The notes beneath the pieces are model-generated. The model had not been told where the DNA came from. It saw only the letters and a list, made by a program, of their open reading frames with translations, and made no database searches. From Patescibacteria group bacterium (GTDB lineage: Bacteria > Patescibacteriota > Patescibacteriia > UM-FILTER-42-10): DNA of 48,637 nucleotides. The DNA is taken from contig JAHJEX010000045.1 in assembly GCA_018825385.1 (NCBI GenBank), positions 1 through 48,637 on the forward strand, written 5' to 3'. Positions 16,043 to 34,555 of this stretch are shown here, piece after piece (within the stretch, counting starts at the first letter, position 1; each line of letters begins with the position of its first letter). A program made the position numbers and the translations under genes.

Positions 16043-19000
16043 CTAGGCCGGTTGCTTTTTCCTTGTAAACAGCCTTACAAACGGTTTTTTTACTCTATCG
16101 GTGATGTAGATAAGGATAGGTAGCACAACCAGATTACCAATCGTAGAGAATATCAGTCCACCAATAATTGCAGTTCCCAGACCGGTCCAAAACGGATCAG
16201 CCATAGTTAGAGGAAGTACACCAGCAATGGTTGTGATAGATGTAGAGAAGATCGGCTTAAAGCGCACCTTGCCGGTATATACCAATGCTTCTGCAATCGA
16301 CCAATCTGGATTCTTCTTGCGTTGCCGGTTAAAGTAATCCACAAACACAATAGCATCATTCACCACAATTCCTACCAGCGCTATAATCCCCAATCCTGAA
16401 ATCATATCGATAGAGCTTCCTACTAAAAGCAAGCCAGGAAAAACACCAATCAAAGCCATAGGGATAGCCATAAGTATTAATGCCGGTTGAATGTAGGAAT
16501 TAAACTGGAACACTAGTATAAGGTAGACAGCAATTAGAGCAATGATAAATACATTCATCAGACTACTCATGTCACCTTCTATCTCCGAAGCAAATCCTCC
16601 ATAGCCCACCCCATCACTTTCTAGTCCAAGCGATTCTAGTTTTTCTGCTGAGAGATATTCTTTTATATCCGTCTCTAATTTTCCGGCAACTCCAGAGCGA
16701 TCATCTTCAGCTACATCCAGATCAATCTGATACATAATTGTTCGCTCACCATCTATAAAGTCAATAGACTCAGCCTCTTCTACTTTGCTGACTGTTGCGA
16801 TCTGATCCAGCGTTACCACTCCCCCTACCGCTGTAGGGATTAGCAGTTTTTCAAGCTTCTCTACAGAATTTGTTGATTCCTCACTAAAGGTCAAAACCAC
16901 ATCGTCCTGAACGCCATCTTCTCTCACAACAATCTTGGATATATCAGACTCGCTAAACACGCTATTAACTATCATGGAAGTTGTAAGTGGAGTAATTCCC
17001 AGTTGACGTACCTTGTCTTTGTCAAAGGAAATATCAACAGAAGGAACCAACTTATCTGTAATGTCGTTGGAAATTCTTTTAATCTCATATTCCCCTGCTT
17101 CACTTTTCCCACGAACAAACTTATCAACATCATCTACTGCGCTTTCTAGTATCCCGGCATCAGAGTTTTTTATTTCCAAGATAACATCATACATTGTTCC
17201 CGAAGGGCCGTAACTAATTGCATTAACACTAATGTAGGTTCCCTCTGGAGCTTTATCTCTTACATACTGAAGCTCATCGTCTATATCCTCAACAATAGTA
17301 TAAACAGTTGTTTCTTTATCGTCTGATCTTGCTCCTGGCTCAGTAATAAGTACCATATTTGTGTTATCAAAAATGTATGATCCTTCAAAATAAGGCACTT
17401 CAATCCCCTCTTTCACAATATCAGACATTATCTCTCTTCTGACATCCGTGGGCGTGCCAGCGGGATAGTTAACACTCACTGTAAAAGACCAAGTATCCGT
17501 AATTGGAAATTGTGATCCTGGTATCTTTCCACTCCCAGCAATCGCCAAACTACCACCCAAAGCCGCGACCAAAATAACTAAAATGGCTATTTTTAATGAC
17601 CATTTTCGGTGCACTTTTTCCATCAGTTTCCCGTATCCACTCACAACACTGTCAATCATTCTCTGACCATATAAAACAATAATAGGAATAATTAGCATTT
17701 TCTGCCAAGGACGCAGTTTTCTGTTTGCTCTTTCTTCTTCAGTTTCCTGTTTAAGGATCCATTTACCCAGTAGCGGAGTTATACTGATCGCTAGGAAATA
17801 AGACACTATCATCATTATAATAATAGTGTACGGAATATACTTCATAATTTCACCCATTATTCCACCCATGTTAGCGGCTGGAATAAATACCACAATCGTA
17901 GTAAGTGTTGCCGCTGTTACCGCTGGACCCAAATCACGAATAGCAAGCACTGCTGCTTTTGCTTTCGTCTCTCCGTACTTTTGTATCCGATGAACAATCC
18001 CTTCAGCTATAACAATAGCGTTATCCACTAAAATACCTAGCGTTAAGATCATAGCAAAAAGAGTCAGAGTATTTAGTGAATAACCAATCTGGTTCAGAAC
18101 AAACAAAGTAATAAGAAATGTGAAAGGAATTATCAAGCCAACAACTAATCCTATGCGTATATCAATAAAGAACATAAACACAATCAGAATAGCAATGAGT
18201 CCGATCAATCCATTTTTCAAAAGCGAATTTATTTGCGACTCTACTGAGATCGCAGAATCCATCACTAGATTTATGCTCATGCTTTCATCCAATATGCCTT
18301 TTTCATAAACATCCTCTAGCGCTACTTCAACATCATTTTTCAGCTGGATTATATCTCCATCATCAGTTTTGCCTACCATCAAATAAACAACTTCATCGTT
18401 GAACTTTGGCTCACCATTTTCTATATATCCAGCCATGGTCAAAGCATCAAAGTCAGAAGCTTGTCTTTTAACTTCTGCAATATCAGATAGTTTTACACCG
18501 GCAGACAAAACTATGTTTTTAATGTCATCAACACTGGTGCTTGGATTTTCTATGTTGATTTGGTTTGTTATTCCTGTTTCCTCATCTACTATGCTTCCTC
18601 CGGGCAAAAGAGATAAATTTGCTCCAACTGCACCTTTTACTGTCTGAACATCCATCCCTTTCTGAATCATTTTTACAGCATCCAGCTCAATCCGCACATC
18701 GAAATCAGAGCTAGGAGCAAGGTCAATATTTTTAATCTCATCTGAAGAGTTCTGAATGTATTCTTTCAGCTTCGGTGCTGCAGATAAAACATCATCAAGT
18801 GACTCAGTATCGCTAGAAAGTACATACGCCATAGATACTGACATTGCATCTTCTGTGAACACCCTGGTATCAACATTTTCCGGAAGGCTTAAAGCATCAA
18901 TTTGTTCCTTAAACTCTTTTATCGTCTCATTTATTACTGATTCATTAAACGATTTTATTTCAACCCAGGAAATACCATAGTTTGGATACGCAGTTGAGCG

Positions 19001-19285
19001 AATCCGCACAGTTTGTTCATGATTATTTACAGTATCCTCAATCGGACCCAATACTTCTGTAGCAATCGCTTCCGGTCCGGCACCAGGGTAAACGACTGAA
19101 ACAAATACAAAATTAAGTGGTACAGGAGGGAAATCCTGTCTCTGATTTTGATCCGTTGCCCAAAAACCCATGAGAATCATGGCAATCAGGAAGATAATAG
19201 TTATCTTATATTTACTAATAAAAAATCTTGACCATTTGGCAAGAAAGTTCAATTTCTCCTCTTTTTCTTTTTGGTAGTATTCCAT
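16043..19285 (-). CDS. RND-superfamily efflux permease (AcrB/AcrD/AcrF family)
   Basis: 1080 aa with 12-TM / two large loop topology and the conserved GIIALVGIVVNDAIVFVDY block. No adjacent membrane-fusion or outer-membrane partner gene. Confidence 0.9.
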   Translation of the reverse strand: MEYYQKEKEEKLNFLAKWSRFFISKYKITIIFLIAMILMGFWATDQNQRQDFPPVPLNFVFVSVVYPGAGPEAIATEVLGPIEDTVNNHEQTVRIRSTAYPNYGISWVEIKSFNESVINETIKEFKEQIDALSLPENVDTRVFTEDAMSVSMAYVLSSDTESLDDVLSAAPKLKEYIQNSSDEIKNIDLAPSSDFDVRIELDAVKMIQKGMDVQTVKGAVGANLSLLPGGSIVDEETGITNQINIENPSTSVDDIKNIVLSAGVKLSDIAEVKRQASDFDALTMAGYIENGEPKFNDEVVYLMVGKTDDGDIIQLKNDVEVALEDVYEKGILDESMSINLVMDSAISVESQINSLLKNGLIGLIAILIVFMFFIDIRIGLVVGLIIPFTFLITLFVLNQIGYSLNTLTLFAMILTLGILVDNAIVIAEGIVHRIQKYGETKAKAAVLAIRDLGPAVTAATLTTIVVFIPAANMGGIMGEIMKYIPYTIIIMMIVSYFLAISITPLLGKWILKQETEEERANRKLRPWQKMLIIPIIVLYGQRMIDSVVSGYGKLMEKVHRKWSLKIAILVILVAALGGSLAIAGSGKIPGSQFPITDTWSFTVSVNYPAGTPTDVRREIMSDIVKEGIEVPYFEGSYIFDNTNMVLITEPGARSDDKETTVYTIVEDIDDELQYVRDKAPEGTYISVNAISYGPSGTMYDVILEIKNSDAGILESAVDDVDKFVRGKSEAGEYEIKRISNDITDKLVPSVDISFDKDKVRQLGITPLTTSMIVNSVFSESDISKIVVREDGVQDDVVLTFSEESTNSVEKLEKLLIPTAVGGVVTLDQIATVSKVEEAESIDFIDGERTIMYQIDLDVAEDDRSGVAGKLETDIKEYLSAEKLESLGLESDGVGYGGFASEIEGDMSSLMNVFIIALIAVYLILVFQFNSYIQPALILMAIPMALIGVFPGLLLVGSSIDMISGLGIIALVGIVVNDAIVFVDYFNRQRKKNPDWSIAEALVYTGKVRFKPIFSTSITTIAGVLPLTMADPFWTGLGTAIIGGLIFSTIGNLVVLPILIYITDRVKKPFVRLFTRKKQPA

Positions 19286-19343
19286 AAGTATAGTTTTAAT
19301 TTGACCTAAATTAGGTAAAAAAATGGCTTAAAGCCATTTGTAA

Positions 19344-19371
19344 ATTCTAACAGATTTTTGCAATAATGCAA
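19344..19371 (-). promoter_or_regulatory. Possible promoter TTGCAT-N16-TAGAAT for the RND gene
   Basis: Minus strand: TTGCAT (19366-19371), 16-nt spacer, TAGAAT (19344-19349). The transcript would begin with hairpin AAUGGCU-uua-AGCCAUU + U7 (about 19319-19342). Confidence 0.3.
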
Positions 19372-19383
19372 CATTTGCAATAA

Positions 19384-19424
19384 AAAAACCACTTAGGACA
19401 GTAAGTGGTGGGCGGATATGTCCG
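19384..19424 (-). terminator. Terminator of the GC-rich 201-aa gene
   Basis: Minus strand: GGCGGA-caua-UCCGCC, then CCACUUA-cugucc-UAAGUGG followed by UUUUUUU. Confidence 0.7.
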
Positions 19425-19425
19425 C

Positions 19426-20031
19426 CTAGGAGAATGCGATGCCGGTCGCGCGGACCTGCTCGGCAATCCTCTGTTGGAGAAAAGCGGAAAACCGCTGGTA
19501 GATGACTCCCAGTATGTATTTTTCAAGAGTATCGTGCCTTGTTCTGTTCTGAACGGCAAACTGTTCCAGCGCCATTTGGAAGCGGGCATATTCCAGCATC
19601 AGGATCGGGTTGCCCGGGGAGGTTTCGTGCCACTCTCTTCCGTGGCCGATTATAGCCCGGATCGGAGTATTGACGAACCAGTAACCCATTACGTCCTGAT
19701 TGGGTGCTGAGTTGAGGATGAAGTCCGAAATGTTTTTTTTCCCAACACGCCCTGCCAAGAAATTGCTGGATAGATCTCTAAGCTCAATATTGATGCCGCC
19801 AGCATCAACAGGTTTTTCGAACGGTCTCCGAATGCTGTAACTGACGCCCCATACATCGTTAGGTTGTCCCTTGTTACGAGCCATTACACAGATGGTAGTT
19901 TTTCTCGCATGACAAAACACTCTTGGGGAGTCGTCCCTGCCTAAATGCTCGTGCGCCACACGAATAAACAGGATCTTGGTCGACATCTCCAGCACATCAC
20001 TGGGTTCGAATCTACTTCTCTTCAGCATCAC
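19426..20031 (-). CDS. Hypothetical protein in a GC-rich, SD-led cassette (likely foreign origin)
   Basis: 201-aa ORF with balanced composition. GGAGGA lies 6-9 nt upstream of GTG/ATG. Sample 60-mers count about 50-62% GC. The overlapping alternative-frame ORFs look spurious. No motif recognised. Confidence 0.7.
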   Translation of the reverse strand: MMLKRSRFEPSDVLEMSTKILFIRVAHEHLGRDDSPRVFCHARKTTICVMARNKGQPNDVWGVSYSIRRPFEKPVDAGGINIELRDLSSNFLAGRVGKKNISDFILNSAPNQDVMGYWFVNTPIRAIIGHGREWHETSPGNPILMLEYARFQMALEQFAVQNRTRHDTLEKYILGVIYQRFSAFLQQRIAEQVRATGIAFS

Positions 20032-20049
20032 AGTTCCTCCAATCGCCTA

Positions 20050-20061
20050 TGGGCATGCCCA
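20050..20061. promoter_or_regulatory. Perfect 12-bp palindrome TGGGCATGCCCA next to the RBS of the GC-rich gene (operator-like)
   Basis: Read directly. It is too short-looped to be a stable hairpin, so protein binding is more plausible. Flanked by two CCAATCAG direct repeats (20059-20066, 20114-20121). Confidence 0.35.
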
Positions 20062-20130
20062 ATCAGCTATGGAAAAGTACAAAACTCTAAAAGCCATTCA
20101 ACCTATGGAGATTCCAATCAGTTGTGACTT

Positions 20131-20163
20131 TTCGAATAAACCATACACTGTCCTGTATGGTTT
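20131..20163 (-). terminator. Terminator of the 22.5-20.2 kb operon
   Basis: Perfect 10-bp stem AAACCAUACA-ggacag-UGUAUGGUUU followed by AUU. Located 43 nt after the stop at 20206. Confidence 0.6.
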
Positions 20164-20205
20164 ATGACTTTATTATATTTTGTTTACATTGTCAACAATA
20201 CAGTA

Positions 20206-20937
20206 CTACTGATGCACGTCCATCCAGTTTTCTTCCATTACTACCCGGTCAAAATGTTTTTGCAGTTGCGGTGACACCTTTACATCATGCTTCACCTTTT
20301 GTACCCCCCATTCAAACGCCTCTAGAAATAAATACGGCTGAATATGAAACTGTACGCGAGCGATTCCGGACTCAATATCAAATTTTAACAGCTCCGGAGG
20401 AGAAACAATAGCTCCGGTATAGCCTTTTTCCACCATAGCAAATGTCACGTTAAAGTTGCGCACTTTGCCAAGTTGATCCCGGCTCATTATTCTATTCTTG
20501 ATAAAAGATTTGGCAAACTCTCTAAACATCGGAGCGCTGTCCGCTTTCAGCCGCATATATAACTGAAAATTGTTGTGTTCTATTCCGTTGCGCAAAAGCC
20601 GTGCCGCCGCATATTCCAAAGGCCTTAGCCCCATATAGTTTCTATAAAACAGAATATAATCACTGTATTTAACATAGTCTTTTCCGCTGGAAAGCATCGT
20701 CATTTTTTTCACTGCAATATGCGCCAGAAGAATCGCTGAAAAATATGGCATCTGATGAATCGGCGGATTTGGAAAAGTTATCAGCTTTCCGGTCAAAAGT
20801 AAAATCTGCCGGCGCAATAAATACAGCGGCGAATACGAAATAGGCAGATCAGTGCCGGCCGAATACAGCTTGGCATATTCTTCCTCCCCTTTCGTCGGGT
20901 CGAAAAAATACAGCGCTAATTTTTCTTGCAAATCCAT
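20206..20937 (-). CDS. Hypothetical protein with an RNxxxH (HEPN / Abi_2-like) motif
   Basis: 243 aa containing AARLLRNGIEHNNF (R-x4-H with Asn after Arg, as in many HEPN RNases). No other recognisable motif. Confidence 0.4.
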   Translation of the reverse strand: MDLQEKLALYFFDPTKGEEEYAKLYSAGTDLPISYSPLYLLRRQILLLTGKLITFPNPPIHQMPYFSAILLAHIAVKKMTMLSSGKDYVKYSDYILFYRNYMGLRPLEYAAARLLRNGIEHNNFQLYMRLKADSAPMFREFAKSFIKNRIMSRDQLGKVRNFNVTFAMVEKGYTGAIVSPPELLKFDIESGIARVQFHIQPYLFLEAFEWGVQKVKHDVKVSPQLQKHFDRVVMEENWMDVHQ

Positions 20938-31235: not shown

Positions 31236-31859
31236 TTACTTTTTTTTCTTGACCGCTTTCTTCACAGCTTTTTTAGCAACTTTCTTTGTTGCAGGTTTTT
31301 TTGTTGTTTCCTTTTTTTCTACTGTTTTCTTTGCCTGTCCCCGACTTGATCGGGGATCAATTTCCATTTTTGACATTTCTTTCCCAACCACCGCTTTTTC
31401 TATGAATCCGATAACTCTGTCCAGTTTGTTGTTTAAAGATGTTAGCTGTTCGGATATCTGCTTGTTACCTACGCCATCACTTGGTGCTTTTTTTGGTCTT
31501 CCACCATCTCGAAATCCTCCCGGACGGTCTTCTTTACTGAAACAGTCACTGCAGAAAATAGGTTTTCCGCTGGTTGGTTTGAACGGTACTTCTGCTTTTC
31601 CACCACATTTATCACAAATAGCAGTATACATACCGCGATCACTTGATCTGCCAAATCCTCGGTCATTGGATCTTCCATAACCTCGATCGTTGGATCTGCT
31701 AAAGTTACGCCCTCCTGATCCTCCGCTATGACTGTTTCCTTTTTCGCCAAAACAGTTACTGCATAGAACAGGTTTTCCGCCAGATGGTCGGAAGGGCACT
31801 TCGCATTTATTTCCACACTCATCACAAGTAGCTGGAAACATTGGTTTTTTGTCGTACAT
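31236..31859 (-). CDS. Tandem CxxC zinc-ribbon protein with an RGG-like repeat linker and a Lys-rich tail (likely nucleic-acid binding)
   Basis: Two copies of C-x2-CG-x4-VPF+P-x3-KP-x-C-x2-CF. Three RSNDRG[YF]G repeats. C-terminal KKPATKKVAKKAVKKAVKKKK. Confidence 0.65.
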   Translation of the reverse strand: MYDKKPMFPATCDECGNKCEVPFRPSGGKPVLCSNCFGEKGNSHSGGSGGRNFSRSNDRGYGRSNDRGFGRSSDRGMYTAICDKCGGKAEVPFKPTSGKPIFCSDCFSKEDRPGGFRDGGRPKKAPSDGVGNKQISEQLTSLNNKLDRVIGFIEKAVVGKEMSKMEIDPRSSRGQAKKTVEKKETTKKPATKKVAKKAVKKAVKKKK

Positions 31860-33197: not shown

Positions 33198-34424
33198 CTA
33201 CTTCCGTCTTCTCCTTCCTTGTCCACGGTTTCCGCGCGGGCGACTGCGGGAATAACTGCGTCTGGTATTACGGGAATTAAATTTAGTCTTTGCCGGCTCT
33301 TTAGGGTAGGCACTTCCCTCTCCCAAAACAATCTGGGTTCGGATCAGCTTTTCTATATCTCTTATATCCCGGTGTTGATCAGGCGTAGCAAACGAAATTG
33401 CCTTACCTTTTTTGCCCGCTCTTGCCGTTCTACCAATACGATGAACATAGTCATCTGGTGAACCCGGCAAATCATAATTTACTACTACTTCTATATTGTT
33501 GACGTCTATTCCCCGAGCGGCTATATCAGTTGCCACCAAAATCCGATGCTTGCCATTTTTAAATCCTTCAATAGCAGCCCGCCTTTGTGCCAAAGTTCGA
33601 TTTGAATGGATTTCAGCAGCAGTATGGTTCATGCGGCGAATATCAATGGCAAGTTTTTTAGCTCCCCATTTTGTTCGGGAAAAAACCAAAATGGAACCGC
33701 TGTATTTATCGAGTACGGTCTTTAACATTGCTGTTTTATTATTTGCTGCAAGAAAAACCACTTCCTGATCAATTTCTTTAACGGTGGTTCCGGGCTGTGC
33801 TATTTCAACACGCAGGGGTAAATGCATATGCCGATTTGCAATCGCAAGTATGGACTGCGGCATGGTCGCAGAATATAACAGTGTTTGTCTCGTCTTGGGG
33901 GTACGGATAAGGATTTTTTCAATCTGCGGAGCAAATCCCATGTCCAGCATTCGGTCTGCCTCATCTAGAGTCAGAACACCAACTTCATTTAGCAGTTTCA
34001 GATTATGTGAAAGATGATCGATTAATCTCCCGGGCGTTGCAATAATAATGTGCGGATTGTTTCTCAGCGCACGGGTTTGCATCCCCATTGAAGCACCACC
34101 AATAACTACTACAATCTTTAATCCTAATGGTCTGCCGAATCGCATCAGCATCTCATCTGCCTGAGCAGCCAGTTCACGCGTTGGAACCAAAATCAGACCT
34201 CGCGTTTTTTTGCGCGCAATGTTTTGGATCATAGGAAGTCCAAAGGCCAAAGTTTTTCCTGTTCCGGTCTGGGCAATCCCGATCAGGTCCTTTCCTTCAA
34301 TTGCCAAAGGAATAGTCTTTGCCTGAATTGGCGTCGGTACTGTAAACCTATTTTTATCCAATATTTGAAGTAGCTTTGGTGCCAGTCCAAGTCCATAGAA
34401 ATTTGATGTTGATTCCTGATTCAT
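33198..34424 (-). CDS. DEAD-box ATP-dependent RNA helicase (RhlE-like) with an Arg-rich tail
   Basis: Q motif PTPIQ, AQTGTGKT, DEAD, SAT, HRIGRTARAG. The track ORF begins at a TTG (34466); the ATG at 34422-34424 (MNQESTSNFYGLGL) is more likely. Confidence 0.92.
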   Translation of the reverse strand: MNQESTSNFYGLGLAPKLLQILDKNRFTVPTPIQAKTIPLAIEGKDLIGIAQTGTGKTLAFGLPMIQNIARKKTRGLILVPTRELAAQADEMLMRFGRPLGLKIVVVIGGASMGMQTRALRNNPHIIIATPGRLIDHLSHNLKLLNEVGVLTLDEADRMLDMGFAPQIEKILIRTPKTRQTLLYSATMPQSILAIANRHMHLPLRVEIAQPGTTVKEIDQEVVFLAANNKTAMLKTVLDKYSGSILVFSRTKWGAKKLAIDIRRMNHTAAEIHSNRTLAQRRAAIEGFKNGKHRILVATDIAARGIDVNNIEVVVNYDLPGSPDDYVHRIGRTARAGKKGKAISFATPDQHRDIRDIEKLIRTQIVLGEGSAYPKEPAKTKFNSRNTRRSYSRSRPRGNRGQGRRRRK

Positions 34425-34555
34425 AACTTTAAATAGTAAAGAATAAAAGCAAAGTGCAGTTTTCAAGTTTTTATCATGGTCGATGCTCTTTACAAATGTA
34501 CCCTACCACGAAACCCCAATAAACACTAACCGGATTACCGATTAACAAATAAAAA

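What the first reader, a model, noticed from the sequence alone, without database searches (positions are those of the whole stretch)
19340..20200. GC-rich, Shine-Dalgarno-led single-gene cassette embedded in an SD-less AT-rich genome
Seen in the sequence:
- The 201-aa ORF region counts about 50-62% GC in sample 60-mers, versus about 30-35% in flanks.
- It is preceded by GGAGGA (GGAGGAACTGTGATG).
- Native genes show no purine-rich SD: metK cttaaataaaaattgtttATG, corA attaataaagacttATG, lexA cccctaaaataATG.
- The unit lies between the terminator of the upstream operon (20131-20163) and its own double hairpin plus T7 (19384-19424).
- It carries a perfect 12-bp palindrome, TGGGCATGCCCA, next to its RBS.

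The protein has no motif I recognise. Together with the cassettes at 34.55 and 38.9 kb, this looks like recent acquisition of autonomous expression units from a higher-GC, SD-using donor. It sits at the edge of the defence-type block, so an Abi/anti-phage or counter-defence role is possible.
Basis: partly seen in the sequence, partly recalled or inferred. Interest (0 to 1): 0.65.

Follow-up and report, generated by a model that had tools for sequence, protein, structure and literature searches.

The report
Inserted orphan gene with Shine-Dalgarno leader
A roughly 0.8-kb self-contained gene unit for a protein with no known relatives was inserted into a variable spot of one ultra-small (Patescibacteria) bacterium; it is an ordinary kind of gene gain, but it belongs to about 70 GC-rich genes with classic ribosome-binding sites in a genome whose core genes have none.

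Summary
ORF 20031..19426 (-) has 50% GC against a 38% genome. A GGAGGA sits 4 nt before its GTG. It has a promoter-like site, a structured leader and a hairpin after the stop.

It is not an assembly chimera: four independent assemblies carry it. Three equidistant sister species, about 80% nt identical, have the same neighbours. One shows an empty site, where the 243-aa gene is followed 159 nt later by the RND pump gene. Others hold different cargo there. The insert is therefore about 20205..19409. The second hairpin, the T7 run and the downstream TAGAAT promoter are resident DNA.

The 201-aa protein (23 kDa, pI 9.7, no membrane segment) is an orphan. It matched nothing real in 5.8 billion clustered or 1.8 billion representative proteins, nor in Pfam, NCBIfam, PADLOC, PHROGs, PDB, phages or plasmids.

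Genome-wide, 44% of 71 GC-rich ORFs have a core SD, against 2.9% of 918 AT-rich ORFs, which is background. GC-rich SD genes are mostly missing from congeners; AT-rich controls are conserved.

The 16S rRNA keeps its anti-SD. rpsU carries an extended SD across the class, as in Bacteroidia.

No donor was found and function is unknown. The cassette is a new member of a known kind. The two-class translation pattern is the interesting lead.

The parts
20206..20937 (-). Resident upstream neighbour: a 243-aa protein, the last gene of a 258/265/243-aa operon, with an invariant R-N-x-x-E-H-N-N motif (HEPN-like). It is not part of the insert.
   Evidence: Homologs at 85/84/78/76% identity are all 243 aa long and have a conserved C-terminal NWMDVH. 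The gene therefore ends natively at 20206.
19409..20205 (-). The inserted unit, about 797 bp. Its boundaries are known to within about 10 nt.
   Evidence: At the empty site of sister species L035/L036 the 243-aa stop is followed by 29 nt and then the resident terminator. The unit has no similar sequence elsewhere in the genome.
20167..20195 (-). Promoter-like site: TTGACA (20195-20190), 17 nt, TAAAGT (20172-20167).
   Evidence: Consensus scan, 10 of 12 matches. The same TTGACA type is seen upstream of pump orthologs in other Patescibacteria. It is a prediction; no transcript data were available.
20138..20163 (-). Hairpin T' (AAACCATACA-GGACAG-TGTATGGTTT). It probably terminates the upstream operon. 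Its loop is the exact reverse complement of the loop of the resident terminator.
   Evidence: T' and the resident terminator are the only two hairpins in the genome with a CTGTCC or GGACAG loop and a stem of 5 bp or more.
20032..20137 (-). Structured 5' leader. GATTGG occurs at 20119, 20064 and 20044 (plus GAATGG at 20099), and CCATAG at 20108, 20072 and 20052. The palindrome TGGGCATGCCCA is at 20061-20050. A 16-codon uORF (MAFRVLYFSIADWACP) runs from ATG 20097 to its stop at 20049-20047. UUUUCC (20076-20071) pairs with the SD.
   Evidence: Coordinates. Fold of 20165-20010: -47 kcal/mol, z=-3.5, 0 of 200 shuffles as stable, with the SD inside a 7-bp stem. uORF. This is a single-sequence prediction and no covariation test is possible.
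20035..20040 (-). Shine-Dalgarno GGAGGA.
   Evidence: It is complementary to the retained anti-SD of this genome's 16S rRNA...GGATCACCTCCTTTCT.
19426..20031 (-). ORF of 201 codons starting at GTG. Codon 2 is ATG only in this strain and ATA in the four other copies. The product is a soluble, basic orphan protein (23.1 kDa, pI 9.7).
   Evidence: GC by codon position is 0.52/0.40/0.59. Apart from codon 2 the ORF is identical in all five copies. No homolog or family match was found.
19411..19426 (-). The cassette's own short GC hairpin, GGCGGA-CATA-TCCGCC, overlapping the stop codon.
   Evidence: Sequence. It is absent from the empty site in L035.
19382..19408 (-). Resident intrinsic terminator: CCACTTA-CTGTCC-TAAGTGG plus T7. 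It is not part of the insert.
   Evidence: The same hairpin (CACTTACTGTCCTAAGTG plus a T run) follows the 243-aa gene at the empty site of L035/L036.
19344..19371 (-). Resident promoter of the downstream RND pump gene: TTGCAT, 16 nt, TAGAAT. Base 19344 is the last base shared with the second haplotype (L004/L005).
   Evidence: AAATCTGTTAGAAT is conserved in L035, in L037 (one mismatch), in L004 and in the window.
16043..19285 (-). Downstream neighbour: a 1080-aa AcrB/RND-type transporter. In this haplotype it is a xenolog that replaced the ancestral 1054-aa type.
   Evidence: Pfam ACR_tran, 3.6e-137. It is 44-47% identical to the pump of L035, L037 and L004, which are 91-92% identical to one another.

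Best explanation
This is a species-specific, horizontally gained, moron-like single-gene unit of about 0.8 kb. It was inserted between the stop codon of a HEPN-like 243-aa gene and that gene's resident terminator. The site lies in an intergenic slot, upstream of an RND pump gene, that turns over between sister species.

Steps inferred from sequence signals:
- A host-type sigma-70 promoter (TTGACA-17-TAAAGT) starts a transcript near 20160.
- Its roughly 125-nt leader folds so that the canonical SD (GGAGGA) is paired with an upstream UUUUCC.
- Translation starts at GTG 20031, or at ATG 20028 in this strain, when the SD is freed and can pair with the retained anti-SD of 16S rRNA.
- Transcription stops at the cassette's own GC hairpin plus the resident terminator.

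The product is a soluble, basic, 23-kDa cytoplasmic protein with no detectable relatives. My best guess, with low confidence, is an accessory protein related to conflict with phages or to regulation. This rests only on its position in a defence-type variable region and its basic charge.

The unit belongs to a genome-wide class of about 70 GC-rich, SD-led accessory genes in a genome whose AT-rich core genes show no SD signal.
For: Not an artefact. The same unit sits in the same context in four independent assemblies: ENA ERZ27247128, GCA_018817785.1, and Logan SRR10598176 and SRR26275507.

Insertion.
- L035/L036 have 265aa-243aa-159 nt-pump, with the resident terminator and -10 region intact.
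- L037 has an AT-rich methyltransferase at the same slot.
- L038 and G003 have a 3.2-kb, 60% GC, two-gene block there.
- A, L035 and L037 are equidistant: the 243-aa protein is 84-85% identical and PIF1 85-87%. L038 and G003 are the outgroup. One gain is therefore more parsimonious than two or three losses.

Coding.
- The stop-free run has P=0.0035 in shuffles.
- GC by codon position is 0.52/0.40/0.59.
- The SD is at the right distance from the start.
- There is no Rfam hit even at E<=1.
- There is 1 difference in the 606-nt ORF against 2 in the 165-nt leader.

Class.
- A core SD is present in 43.7% of GC-rich ORFs and 2.9% of AT-rich ORFs, and the signal is position-specific.
- Of 14 GC-rich SD genes, only 1 has a match above 50% identity in the three congeners. 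Of 14 matched AT-rich controls, 12-13 are found in each congener at 61-95% identity.
- The same GC-SD link is seen in G002, G003 and G017.

The anti-SD is retained in the 16S rRNA. The leader fold has z=-3.5 with the SD sequestered.
Against: - No donor or homolog exists in any database searched, so 'horizontal' rests on distribution and composition, not on a traced source.
- Promoter, terminator and leader structure are single-sequence predictions.
- The five copies are nearly identical, so there is no dN/dS or covariation test of coding or structure.
- The structure prediction failed (pLDDT 41), so nothing supports any particular function.
- The insertion mechanism is unknown. There are no flanking repeats or target duplication, no integrase or transposase in the window, and no copy elsewhere.
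Confidence: 0.62

Rival explanations
1. The gene is old and vertically inherited. It has stayed GC-rich and SD-led and was lost independently from the sister species.
For: Earlier notes on two other cassettes of this genome concluded persistence, not recent transfer. In this very slot a 60% GC block is shared by L038 and G003 at 77% nt identity, so GC-rich inserts can persist through speciation. Crotonase, purN and purD homologs stay GC-elevated and SD-led in other Patescibacteria.
Against: No homolog was found in 5.8 billion or 1.84 billion protein sets beyond the near-identical copies. L035 has a clean empty site. This explanation needs two or three independent losses on the A/L035/L037 trichotomy plus outgroup.
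Confidence: 0.1
2. The insert is non-functional foreign DNA, such as a remnant of a phage or plasmid fragment taken up by transformation. Its long open frame would then be fortuitous or already dead.
For: The protein is an orphan, the AlphaFold model has low confidence (pLDDT 41), and there is no selection test. Patescibacteria are thought to take up DNA readily (PMC12455944).
Against: An open frame of 201 codons has P=0.0035 in shuffles. The codon-position GC pattern is coding-like. The SD is correctly placed, and there is a promoter and terminators. The ORF is intact and identical in five copies from four or more samples and across two haplotypes.
Confidence: 0.12
3. The unit is a mobile cassette that recently jumped between two different species. 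This would explain why L004/L005 share 906 bp (20249..19344) at 99.6% identity but differ from the window on both sides.
For: There are sharp identity breaks at 20251 and 19344. The downstream pump is only 46.6% identical between the two contexts.
Against: The L004 pump is 91-92% identical to those of L035 and L037. That is exactly the distance between L035 and L037, and the distance expected for the window species' own ancestral ortholog. The shared segment includes 119 nt of resident DNA (the gene 3' end, the terminator and the -10 region) with a single mismatch. The simpler reading is two haplotypes of one species, with the window's pump gene replaced by a xenolog. The left break rests on 36 nt at a contig end that form a perfect palindrome.
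Confidence: 0.08
4. The GC-rich stretch is a structured non-coding RNA gene and not a protein gene.
For: GC-rich islands in AT-rich genomes are often RNAs. The leader is significantly structured (z=-3.5). Other GC-rich, ORF-less patches exist in this contig.
Against: There is no Rfam match at the gathering threshold or at E<=1. The ORF body has z of only -1.9, and 1 of 20 shuffles folds as well. The long frame, the codon-position periodicity and the SD all favour coding.
Confidence: 0.03
5. It is an assembly or binning chimera.
For: The genome is a 90-contig MAG with 4.6% estimated contamination.
Against: The same junctions appear in four independent assemblies from different samples. The unit is embedded between conserved resident genes.
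Confidence: 0.01

Closest known systems
Morons of temperate phages. These are autonomous promoter-gene-terminator units inserted between genes that are adjacent in related phages (concept of Hendrix, Juhala and colleagues, 2000; cited from my own knowledge).
   Same: A single gene with its own promoter-like site and hairpin terminator. Its composition differs from the flanks. It lies between two genes that are adjacent in a close relative. Its cargo is unrelated to its neighbours.
   Different: The host DNA here is a cellular chromosome region with conserved housekeeping-type flanks, not a prophage. Neighbours have no PHROG hits. The cargo is an orphan.
Individually transferred genes and small genomic islands in groundwater Patescibacteria (PMC12455944).
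   Same: The phylum and the phenomenon match. That paper attributes up to 13% of genome length to HGT, mostly between Patescibacteria, with competence and pili proposed as routes.
   Different: That study needs a donor among its MAGs and did not detect unique genes. This unit has no donor or homolog at all. The link between GC-rich accessory genes and SD usage is not among the passages of that paper that I searched; I did not read the whole paper.
SD-blind ribosomes of Bacteroidia with rpsU autoregulation through an extended SD (PMC7797042, PMC9976891, PMC13000453).
   Same: Core genes lack SDs although 16S keeps the anti-SD. rpsU carries an extended SD (GGGGAGGTGA-5 nt-GTG), as do 16-17 of 19 same-class relatives.
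   Different: In Flavobacterium only rpsU has an obvious SD. Here about 40% of a class of some 70 accessory genes have one too. Sequestration of the anti-SD by bS21, bS18 and bS6 is not shown for any Patescibacteria ribosome.
Integron gene cassettes.
   Same: Single-gene units that accumulate at a variable site.
   Different: There is no attC-like repeat shared among the islands and no integron integrase. The genome has one tyrosine recombinase, on another contig. The unit has its own promoter.
Variable hotspots of defence islands.
   Same: The slot carries different cargo in each sister species. It lies beside DpnI, Schlafen/AlbA_2, PIF1, DUF559 and a HEPN-like operon.
   Different: No cargo at this slot matches a known defence family. 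Cargo in the sister species includes a methyltransferase and lipoproteins.

Membership tests
Moron-type autonomous accessory unit | Inserted between two genes that are adjacent in a related genome | tested here: met
   In L035/L036 the 243-aa gene and the pump gene are 159 nt apart, with the same terminator and -10 region.
Moron-type autonomous accessory unit | Own promoter and factor-independent terminator | tested here: inconclusive
   Sequence signals are present: TTGACA-17-TAAAGT, a GC hairpin after the stop and the resident terminator with T7.
Moron-type autonomous accessory unit | Nucleotide composition distinct from the flanking genes | tested here: met
   50.3% GC against a 38.4% genome; GC3 is 0.59 against a native mode of 0.30.
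Moron-type autonomous accessory unit | Resides in a phage or prophage genome | tested here: not met
   Neighbours have no PHROG hits. The flanks are chromosomal genes conserved in sister species. There is no phage match by tblastn.
Integron gene cassette | attC site at the cassette end and an IntI integrase with attI nearby | tested here: not met
   No part of the unit recurs in the genome. The only PF00589 gene is on contig C84.
IS-, MITE- or transposon-borne passenger | Terminal repeats, target-site duplication, a transposase, or multiple copies | tested here: not met
   The unit is single-copy. There are six Y1_Tnp genes in the genome but none in the window. The T' and T hairpins are a unique pair, not a repeat family.
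Known anti-phage defence or Abi proteins (PADLOC-DB) | Significant match to a defence-system model | tested here: not met
   The 201-aa protein and both upstream genes gave 0 families at E<=0.1.
Any curated protein family (Pfam, NCBIfam, PHROGs) or solved structure | Significant sequence or fold match | tested here: not met
   Sequence searches found nothing. The AlphaFold model has pLDDT 41, and Foldseek against PDB gave a best E of 0.49 with TM below 0.25.
Bacteroidia-type SD-blind translation with rpsU extended-SD autoregulation | Core genes lack SDs while 16S retains the anti-SD | tested here: met
   2.9% against 2.1-2.6% background. The 16S 3' end is GGATCACCTCCTTTCT.
Bacteroidia-type SD-blind translation with rpsU extended-SD autoregulation | rpsU carries an exceptionally long SD | tested here: met
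   G000 has GGGGAGGTGA-5 nt-GTG. An extended SD is present in 16-17 of 19 rpsU loci of same-class genomes.
Bacteroidia-type SD-blind translation with rpsU extended-SD autoregulation | The 16S 3' tail is physically sequestered by bS21, bS18 and bS6, and ribosomes fail to use SDs | not testable with these tools
   This needs ribosome structures or in-vitro initiation assays.
Bacteroidia-type SD-blind translation with rpsU extended-SD autoregulation | rpsU is essentially the only SD-bearing gene | tested here: not met
   31 of 71 GC-rich ORFs (43.7%) also carry a core SD.

The most novel reading that the evidence does not exclude
This Patescibacteria clade may run two translation-initiation regimes. 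The first would serve an SD-less, AT-rich core genome read by ribosomes whose anti-SD is normally hidden, as in Bacteroidia. The conserved extended SD on rpsU across the class is the tell-tale for this. The second would serve a GC-rich, SD-led accessory gene pool, which includes this cassette (whose SD is additionally locked in a leader stem). Those genes would be translated mainly when the anti-SD is exposed, for example on bS21-poor ribosomes.

Newly acquired genes would then be kept quiet by default and switched on as a conditional regulon. The combination of SD and high GC would be a maintained feature, not a fading donor signature.
Probability: 0.2. Interest if true: 0.75.

Novelty: new member of a known kind. 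Interest (0 to 1): 0.45.

Why it matters
On its own, the cassette is one more lineage-specific orphan gene gained at a variable hotspot. That is useful for annotation but not surprising.

What matters more is the pattern it exposes. Within single small genomes of this clade, the presence of an SD separates the GC-rich genes (mostly missing from congeners in the sample tested) from the conserved AT-rich genes almost cleanly. The ribosome keeps its anti-SD. rpsU alone among core genes carries an extended SD across the class.

If this reflects Bacteroidia-like masking of the anti-SD, three things would follow:
- 'Specialised ribosome' control would extend to a second, very large phylum.
- It would explain how streamlined symbionts tolerate and regulate foreign genes.
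- It would give a simple sequence rule for flagging accessory genes in Patescibacteria MAGs.

The work also warns that GC-richness is not a reliable clock for recent transfer in these genomes.

Tried and rejected
**Searches that found nothing**
- tRNA scan and Rfam (gathering threshold on the whole window; E<=1 on 19300-20260): no hits.
- Pfam, NCBIfam, PADLOC and PHROGs on the ORF, and Pfam on five alternative frames: nothing.
- Word-indexed search of 5.8 billion proteins and full HMMER search of 1.84 billion representatives: only the protein itself, plus a spurious hit to an Ig-repeat giant protein.
- PDB by sequence: best E 0.21.
- Single-sequence AlphaFold gave pLDDT 41, and Foldseek on that model gave nothing.
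- tblastn against phages and plasmids: nothing.
- Exact 33-mer scans of metagenome and genome contigs: 0 hits; records of the window's own genome are left out of those scans.

**Tools unavailable**

**Ideas dropped**
1. The cassette supplied the last 15 codons of the 243-aa gene. Rejected: that C-terminus is conserved in homologs.
2. The cassette jumped between distant lineages. Rejected: the second context carries the ancestral pump type, and it is the window's pump that was swapped.
3. The flanking hairpins belong to a REP/RAYT-type repeat family. Rejected: they are the only such pair in the genome.
4. Y1 transposases mark GC-rich islands. Only 1 of 6 is adjacent to an island.
5. The leader repeats or the palindrome recur elsewhere as a shared operator. 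They do not.
6. The palindromic 39 nt at the end of L005 is a mobile-element end present in this genome. No match was found.
Full report
**1. What is there**

The window is the whole of contig C52 of a 1.27-Mb, 90-contig genome that is 90% complete and 38.4% GC. Titles of related loci place it in Patescibacteria, with Kerfeldbacteria-like relatives.

On the minus strand, ORF 20031..19426 (201 codons) has 50.3% GC. Its codon positions read 0.52/0.40/0.59. It has z=2.4 against all 600-bp windows of the genome, and 3.3% of windows are as GC-rich.

- GGAGGA at 20040-20035
- GTG at 20031 and ATG at 20028
- the palindrome TGGGCATGCCCA at 20061-20050
- an upstream hairpin at 20163-20138
- two hairpins plus T7 after the stop, at 19426-19382

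A promoter-like TTGACA-17-TAAAGT lies at 20195-20167. A stop-free run this long appears in 0.35% of dinucleotide shuffles of the GC-rich stretch.

**2. It is real DNA, and it is an insertion**

The protein's 90% cluster has four members. Contigs from ENA (L002, 99.1% identical over 15.3 kb) and NCBI (L003, 99.75% over 14.4 kb) show the same gene order. Two Logan contigs (L004, L005) also carry the unit. That excludes an assembly chimera.

The upstream 243-aa gene has homologs at 85, 84, 78 and 76% identity. All are 243 aa long and share a conserved C-terminus, so the gene ends natively at 20206. Their contigs give the sister-genome test:
- **L035/L036:** 265aa-243aa-159 nt-pump. The spacer holds the same terminator hairpin (CACTTACTGTCCTAAGTG plus a T run) and the same AAATCTGTTAGAAT -10 region that end the 'cassette' in the window.
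- **L037:** an AT-rich SAM-methyltransferase sits in the slot.
- **L038/L039 and the same-genus genome G003:** a 3.2-kb, 60% GC, two-gene lipoprotein block lies there on the other strand. It is 77% identical between the two species.

The insert is therefore about 20205..19409. The second hairpin, the T7 run and the TTGCAT-16-TAGAAT promoter are resident DNA.

Pairwise identities make the window species, L035 and L037 an equidistant trio, with L038 and G003 outside. The 243-aa protein is 84-85% identical within the trio and PIF1 85-87%. One gain is more parsimonious than two or three losses.

**3. The second context**

L004 and L005 share 20249..19344 with the window at 99.6% identity but differ on both sides. 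Their pump is only 46.6% identical to the window's. I first read this as cassette mobility. Three observations argue against that:
- The L004 pump is 91-92% identical to those of L035 and L037. That is exactly the distance between L035 and L037.
- Its 5' UTR aligns with theirs.
- The shared segment includes 119 nt of resident DNA with one mismatch.

The simpler reading is two haplotypes of one species. In the window's haplotype the pump gene was replaced by a xenolog, with the breakpoint right after the -10 box. The left break rests on 36 nt at a contig end that form a perfect palindrome. It stays unexplained.

**4. The gene product**

All five copies of the ORF are identical except at codon 2, which is ATG here and ATA elsewhere. 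GTG 20031 is therefore the common start.

The protein is 23.1 kDa with pI 9.7 and 9.5% Arg. It has no hydrophobic segment; the maximum 19-residue Kyte-Doolittle hydropathy is 0.71.

It has no relative in any resource searched:
- 5.8 billion clustered proteins and 1.84 billion representatives scanned by full HMMER
- Pfam, NCBIfam, PADLOC and PHROGs
- PDB
- phage and plasmid collections

AlphaFold without an alignment gave pLDDT 41, and Foldseek on that model gave nothing. Function cannot be read from sequence.

The neighbourhood is defence-like. It contains DpnI, Schlafen/AlbA_2, PIF1, NUDIX, YgjP, DUF559, and the 243-aa protein with an invariant RNxxEHNN motif.

**5. The leader**

The 156 nt from 20165 to 20010 fold to -47 kcal/mol, with z=-3.5 and 0 of 200 shuffles as stable. 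The SD is paired with UUUUCC (20076-20071), and the palindrome forms the apical hairpin of that stem. A 16-codon uORF (ATG 20097, stop 20049-20047) runs through the 5' arm. This suggests translational gating, but it is a single-sequence prediction.

The ORF body is not unusually structured (z=-1.9), and no Rfam family matches.

**6. The class**

The genome has 79 islands of about 1 kb with at least 48% GC. The GC-rich and AT-rich ORF classes differ sharply:

| Measure | 71 coding-like ORFs, GC >= 0.47 | 918 ORFs, GC < 0.44 |
|---|---|---|
| GGAGG/AGGAG/GAGGA at -18..-3 | 43.7% | 2.9% |
| Same motifs in control upstream windows | 1.4-5.6% | 2.1-2.6% |
| Same motifs in gene bodies | 3.5% | 2.8% |

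I concatenated 14 GC-rich SD genes into one query and searched 20 relatives. The three same-genus genomes gave a single match above 50% identity. Fourteen length-matched AT-rich controls were found 12-13 times in each congener, at 61-95% identity.

The same link between GC and SD holds in other genomes:
- 216 kb of G003 and 180 kb of G002: 24-29% against 2.5-4%
- 400 kb of G017, a same-class genome, as a gradient: 3% rising to 17%

A crotonase from the class has only 14 homologs. Two of them lie on contigs with Patescibacteria-like gene content and 41-44% GC (L040, L041). There the gene cluster is again GC-elevated and SD-led, while neighbouring ValRS, TsaD, RF1, S2 and EF-Ts genes have no SD.

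The cassette therefore belongs to a GC-rich, SD-led gene pool that, in the sample tested, is mostly not shared with congeners. Members of the pool can persist, so GC-richness does not date an acquisition.

**7. Why SDs in an SD-less genome?**

The 16S rRNA (C13) ends ...GGATCACCTCCTTTCT, so the anti-SD is intact.

rpsU, a 35% GC core gene, carries GGGGAGGTGA-5 nt-GTG. Among 19 rpsU loci in same-class genomes, 16-17 have an extended SD.

In Bacteroidia this combination marks ribosomes whose anti-SD is sequestered by bS21, bS18 and bS6. There rpsU, and reporters with a strong SD, are translated better by ribosomes lacking bS21 (PMC7797042, PMC9976891). No paper in the held library mentions both bS21 and Patescibacteria.

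By analogy, SD-led accessory genes here could form a conditionally translated set. This is inference only.

**8. Mechanism of insertion**

This is unknown.
- No part of the unit recurs in the genome.
- The genome has one tyrosine recombinase, on another contig, and six Y1 transposases, none in the window.
- The one oddity is that the upstream hairpin and the resident terminator are the only two hairpins in the genome with a CTGTCC or GGACAG loop, and they lie in opposite orientation around the ORF.

**9. Verdict**

Gain of an autonomous unit is supported. The donor and a defence role are not shown.
- The closest known kind is a moron-like accessory unit or an individually transferred gene, as described for groundwater Patescibacteria (PMC12455944).
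- The cassette itself is of modest interest. The genome-wide split between SD-led and SD-less genes, together with the rpsU signature, is the lead worth following.

Noticed in passing
window 16043-19344; L004 724-2329; L035 7733-11056: The window's 1080-aa RND pump gene is a xenolog. It is 44-47% identical to the 1054-aa type carried by sister species and by a second haplotype of the same species. The replacement breakpoint falls immediately after the conserved -10 box TAGAAT (19349-19344).
   Followed up: partly
slot downstream of the 243-aa gene: L035 7733-7891, L037 7762-8421, L038 7800-11100, G003:C5 1-2640: The same intergenic slot is empty in one sister species. It holds an AT-rich SAM-methyltransferase in another. 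In two further species it holds a 3.2-kb, 60% GC, two-gene lipoprotein block (GC3 0.80, SD AAGGAGAG), which is 77% identical between those two species.
   Followed up: partly
window 20138-20163 and 19389-19408: The two hairpins that bracket the ORF are the only ones in the genome with a CTGTCC or GGACAG loop. Their loops are exact reverse complements and their stems differ by compensatory changes. This may be a trace of the insertion event.
   Followed up: partly
G000:C15:15084-15239 (-) and L088-L105: rpsU (bS21) carries an extended SD (GGGGAGGTGA-5 nt-GTG) in this otherwise SD-less genome. Similar extended SDs precede rpsU in 16-17 of 19 same-class genomes. This is the signature of the Bacteroidia bS21 autoregulation system.
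   Followed up: partly
G000:C13:13519-15042: The 16S rRNA keeps the canonical anti-SD tail (GGATCACCTCCTTTCT) although core genes show no SD enrichment.
   Followed up: yes
G000:C66 about 31313-31681 and 34092-34460: Two GC-rich cassettes 3 kb apart share 369 bp at 93.8% identity. The shared part includes an identical 25-nt SD leader (tttctcttaaacaaggagtagtgtcATG). Their 3' parts differ.
   Followed up: no
window 20047-20097 (-): A 16-codon uORF (MAFRVLYFSIADWACP) lies in the leader. It overlaps the arm that pairs with the SD. The one polymorphism inside it (AGA/AGC) is non-synonymous.
   Followed up: no
L005 1-39: The second-haplotype contig ends in a perfect 39-nt palindrome (TCATTGAGTCAGGCTACAACATTGTAGCTGACTCAATGA) abutting window position 20251, with an in-frame TGA. 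It could be a contig-end artefact or a rearrangement that truncates the 243-aa gene. It has no match in this genome.
   Followed up: partly
window 20026: Only this strain has G at codon 2 of the ORF (GTG ATG). The four other copies have A (GTG ATA). The change creates an ATG with ideal 7-nt spacing from the SD.
   Followed up: no
G000:C32:33952-35949, G000:C22:131-1177; L041 11987-14075: Purine-synthesis genes (purN, purD, purM-like) are GC-rich and SD-led in this genome. In another Patescibacteria contig, purN shows a near-identical SD context (aaggaggtgaagc).
   Followed up: no
L035 5590-6147; L041 4932-5546; G000:C71:4609-4854: Y1 (IS200/RAYT-type) transposase genes sit next to variable or GC-elevated blocks in three places. 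Only 1 of the 6 copies in this genome is adjacent to a GC-rich island.
   Followed up: partly
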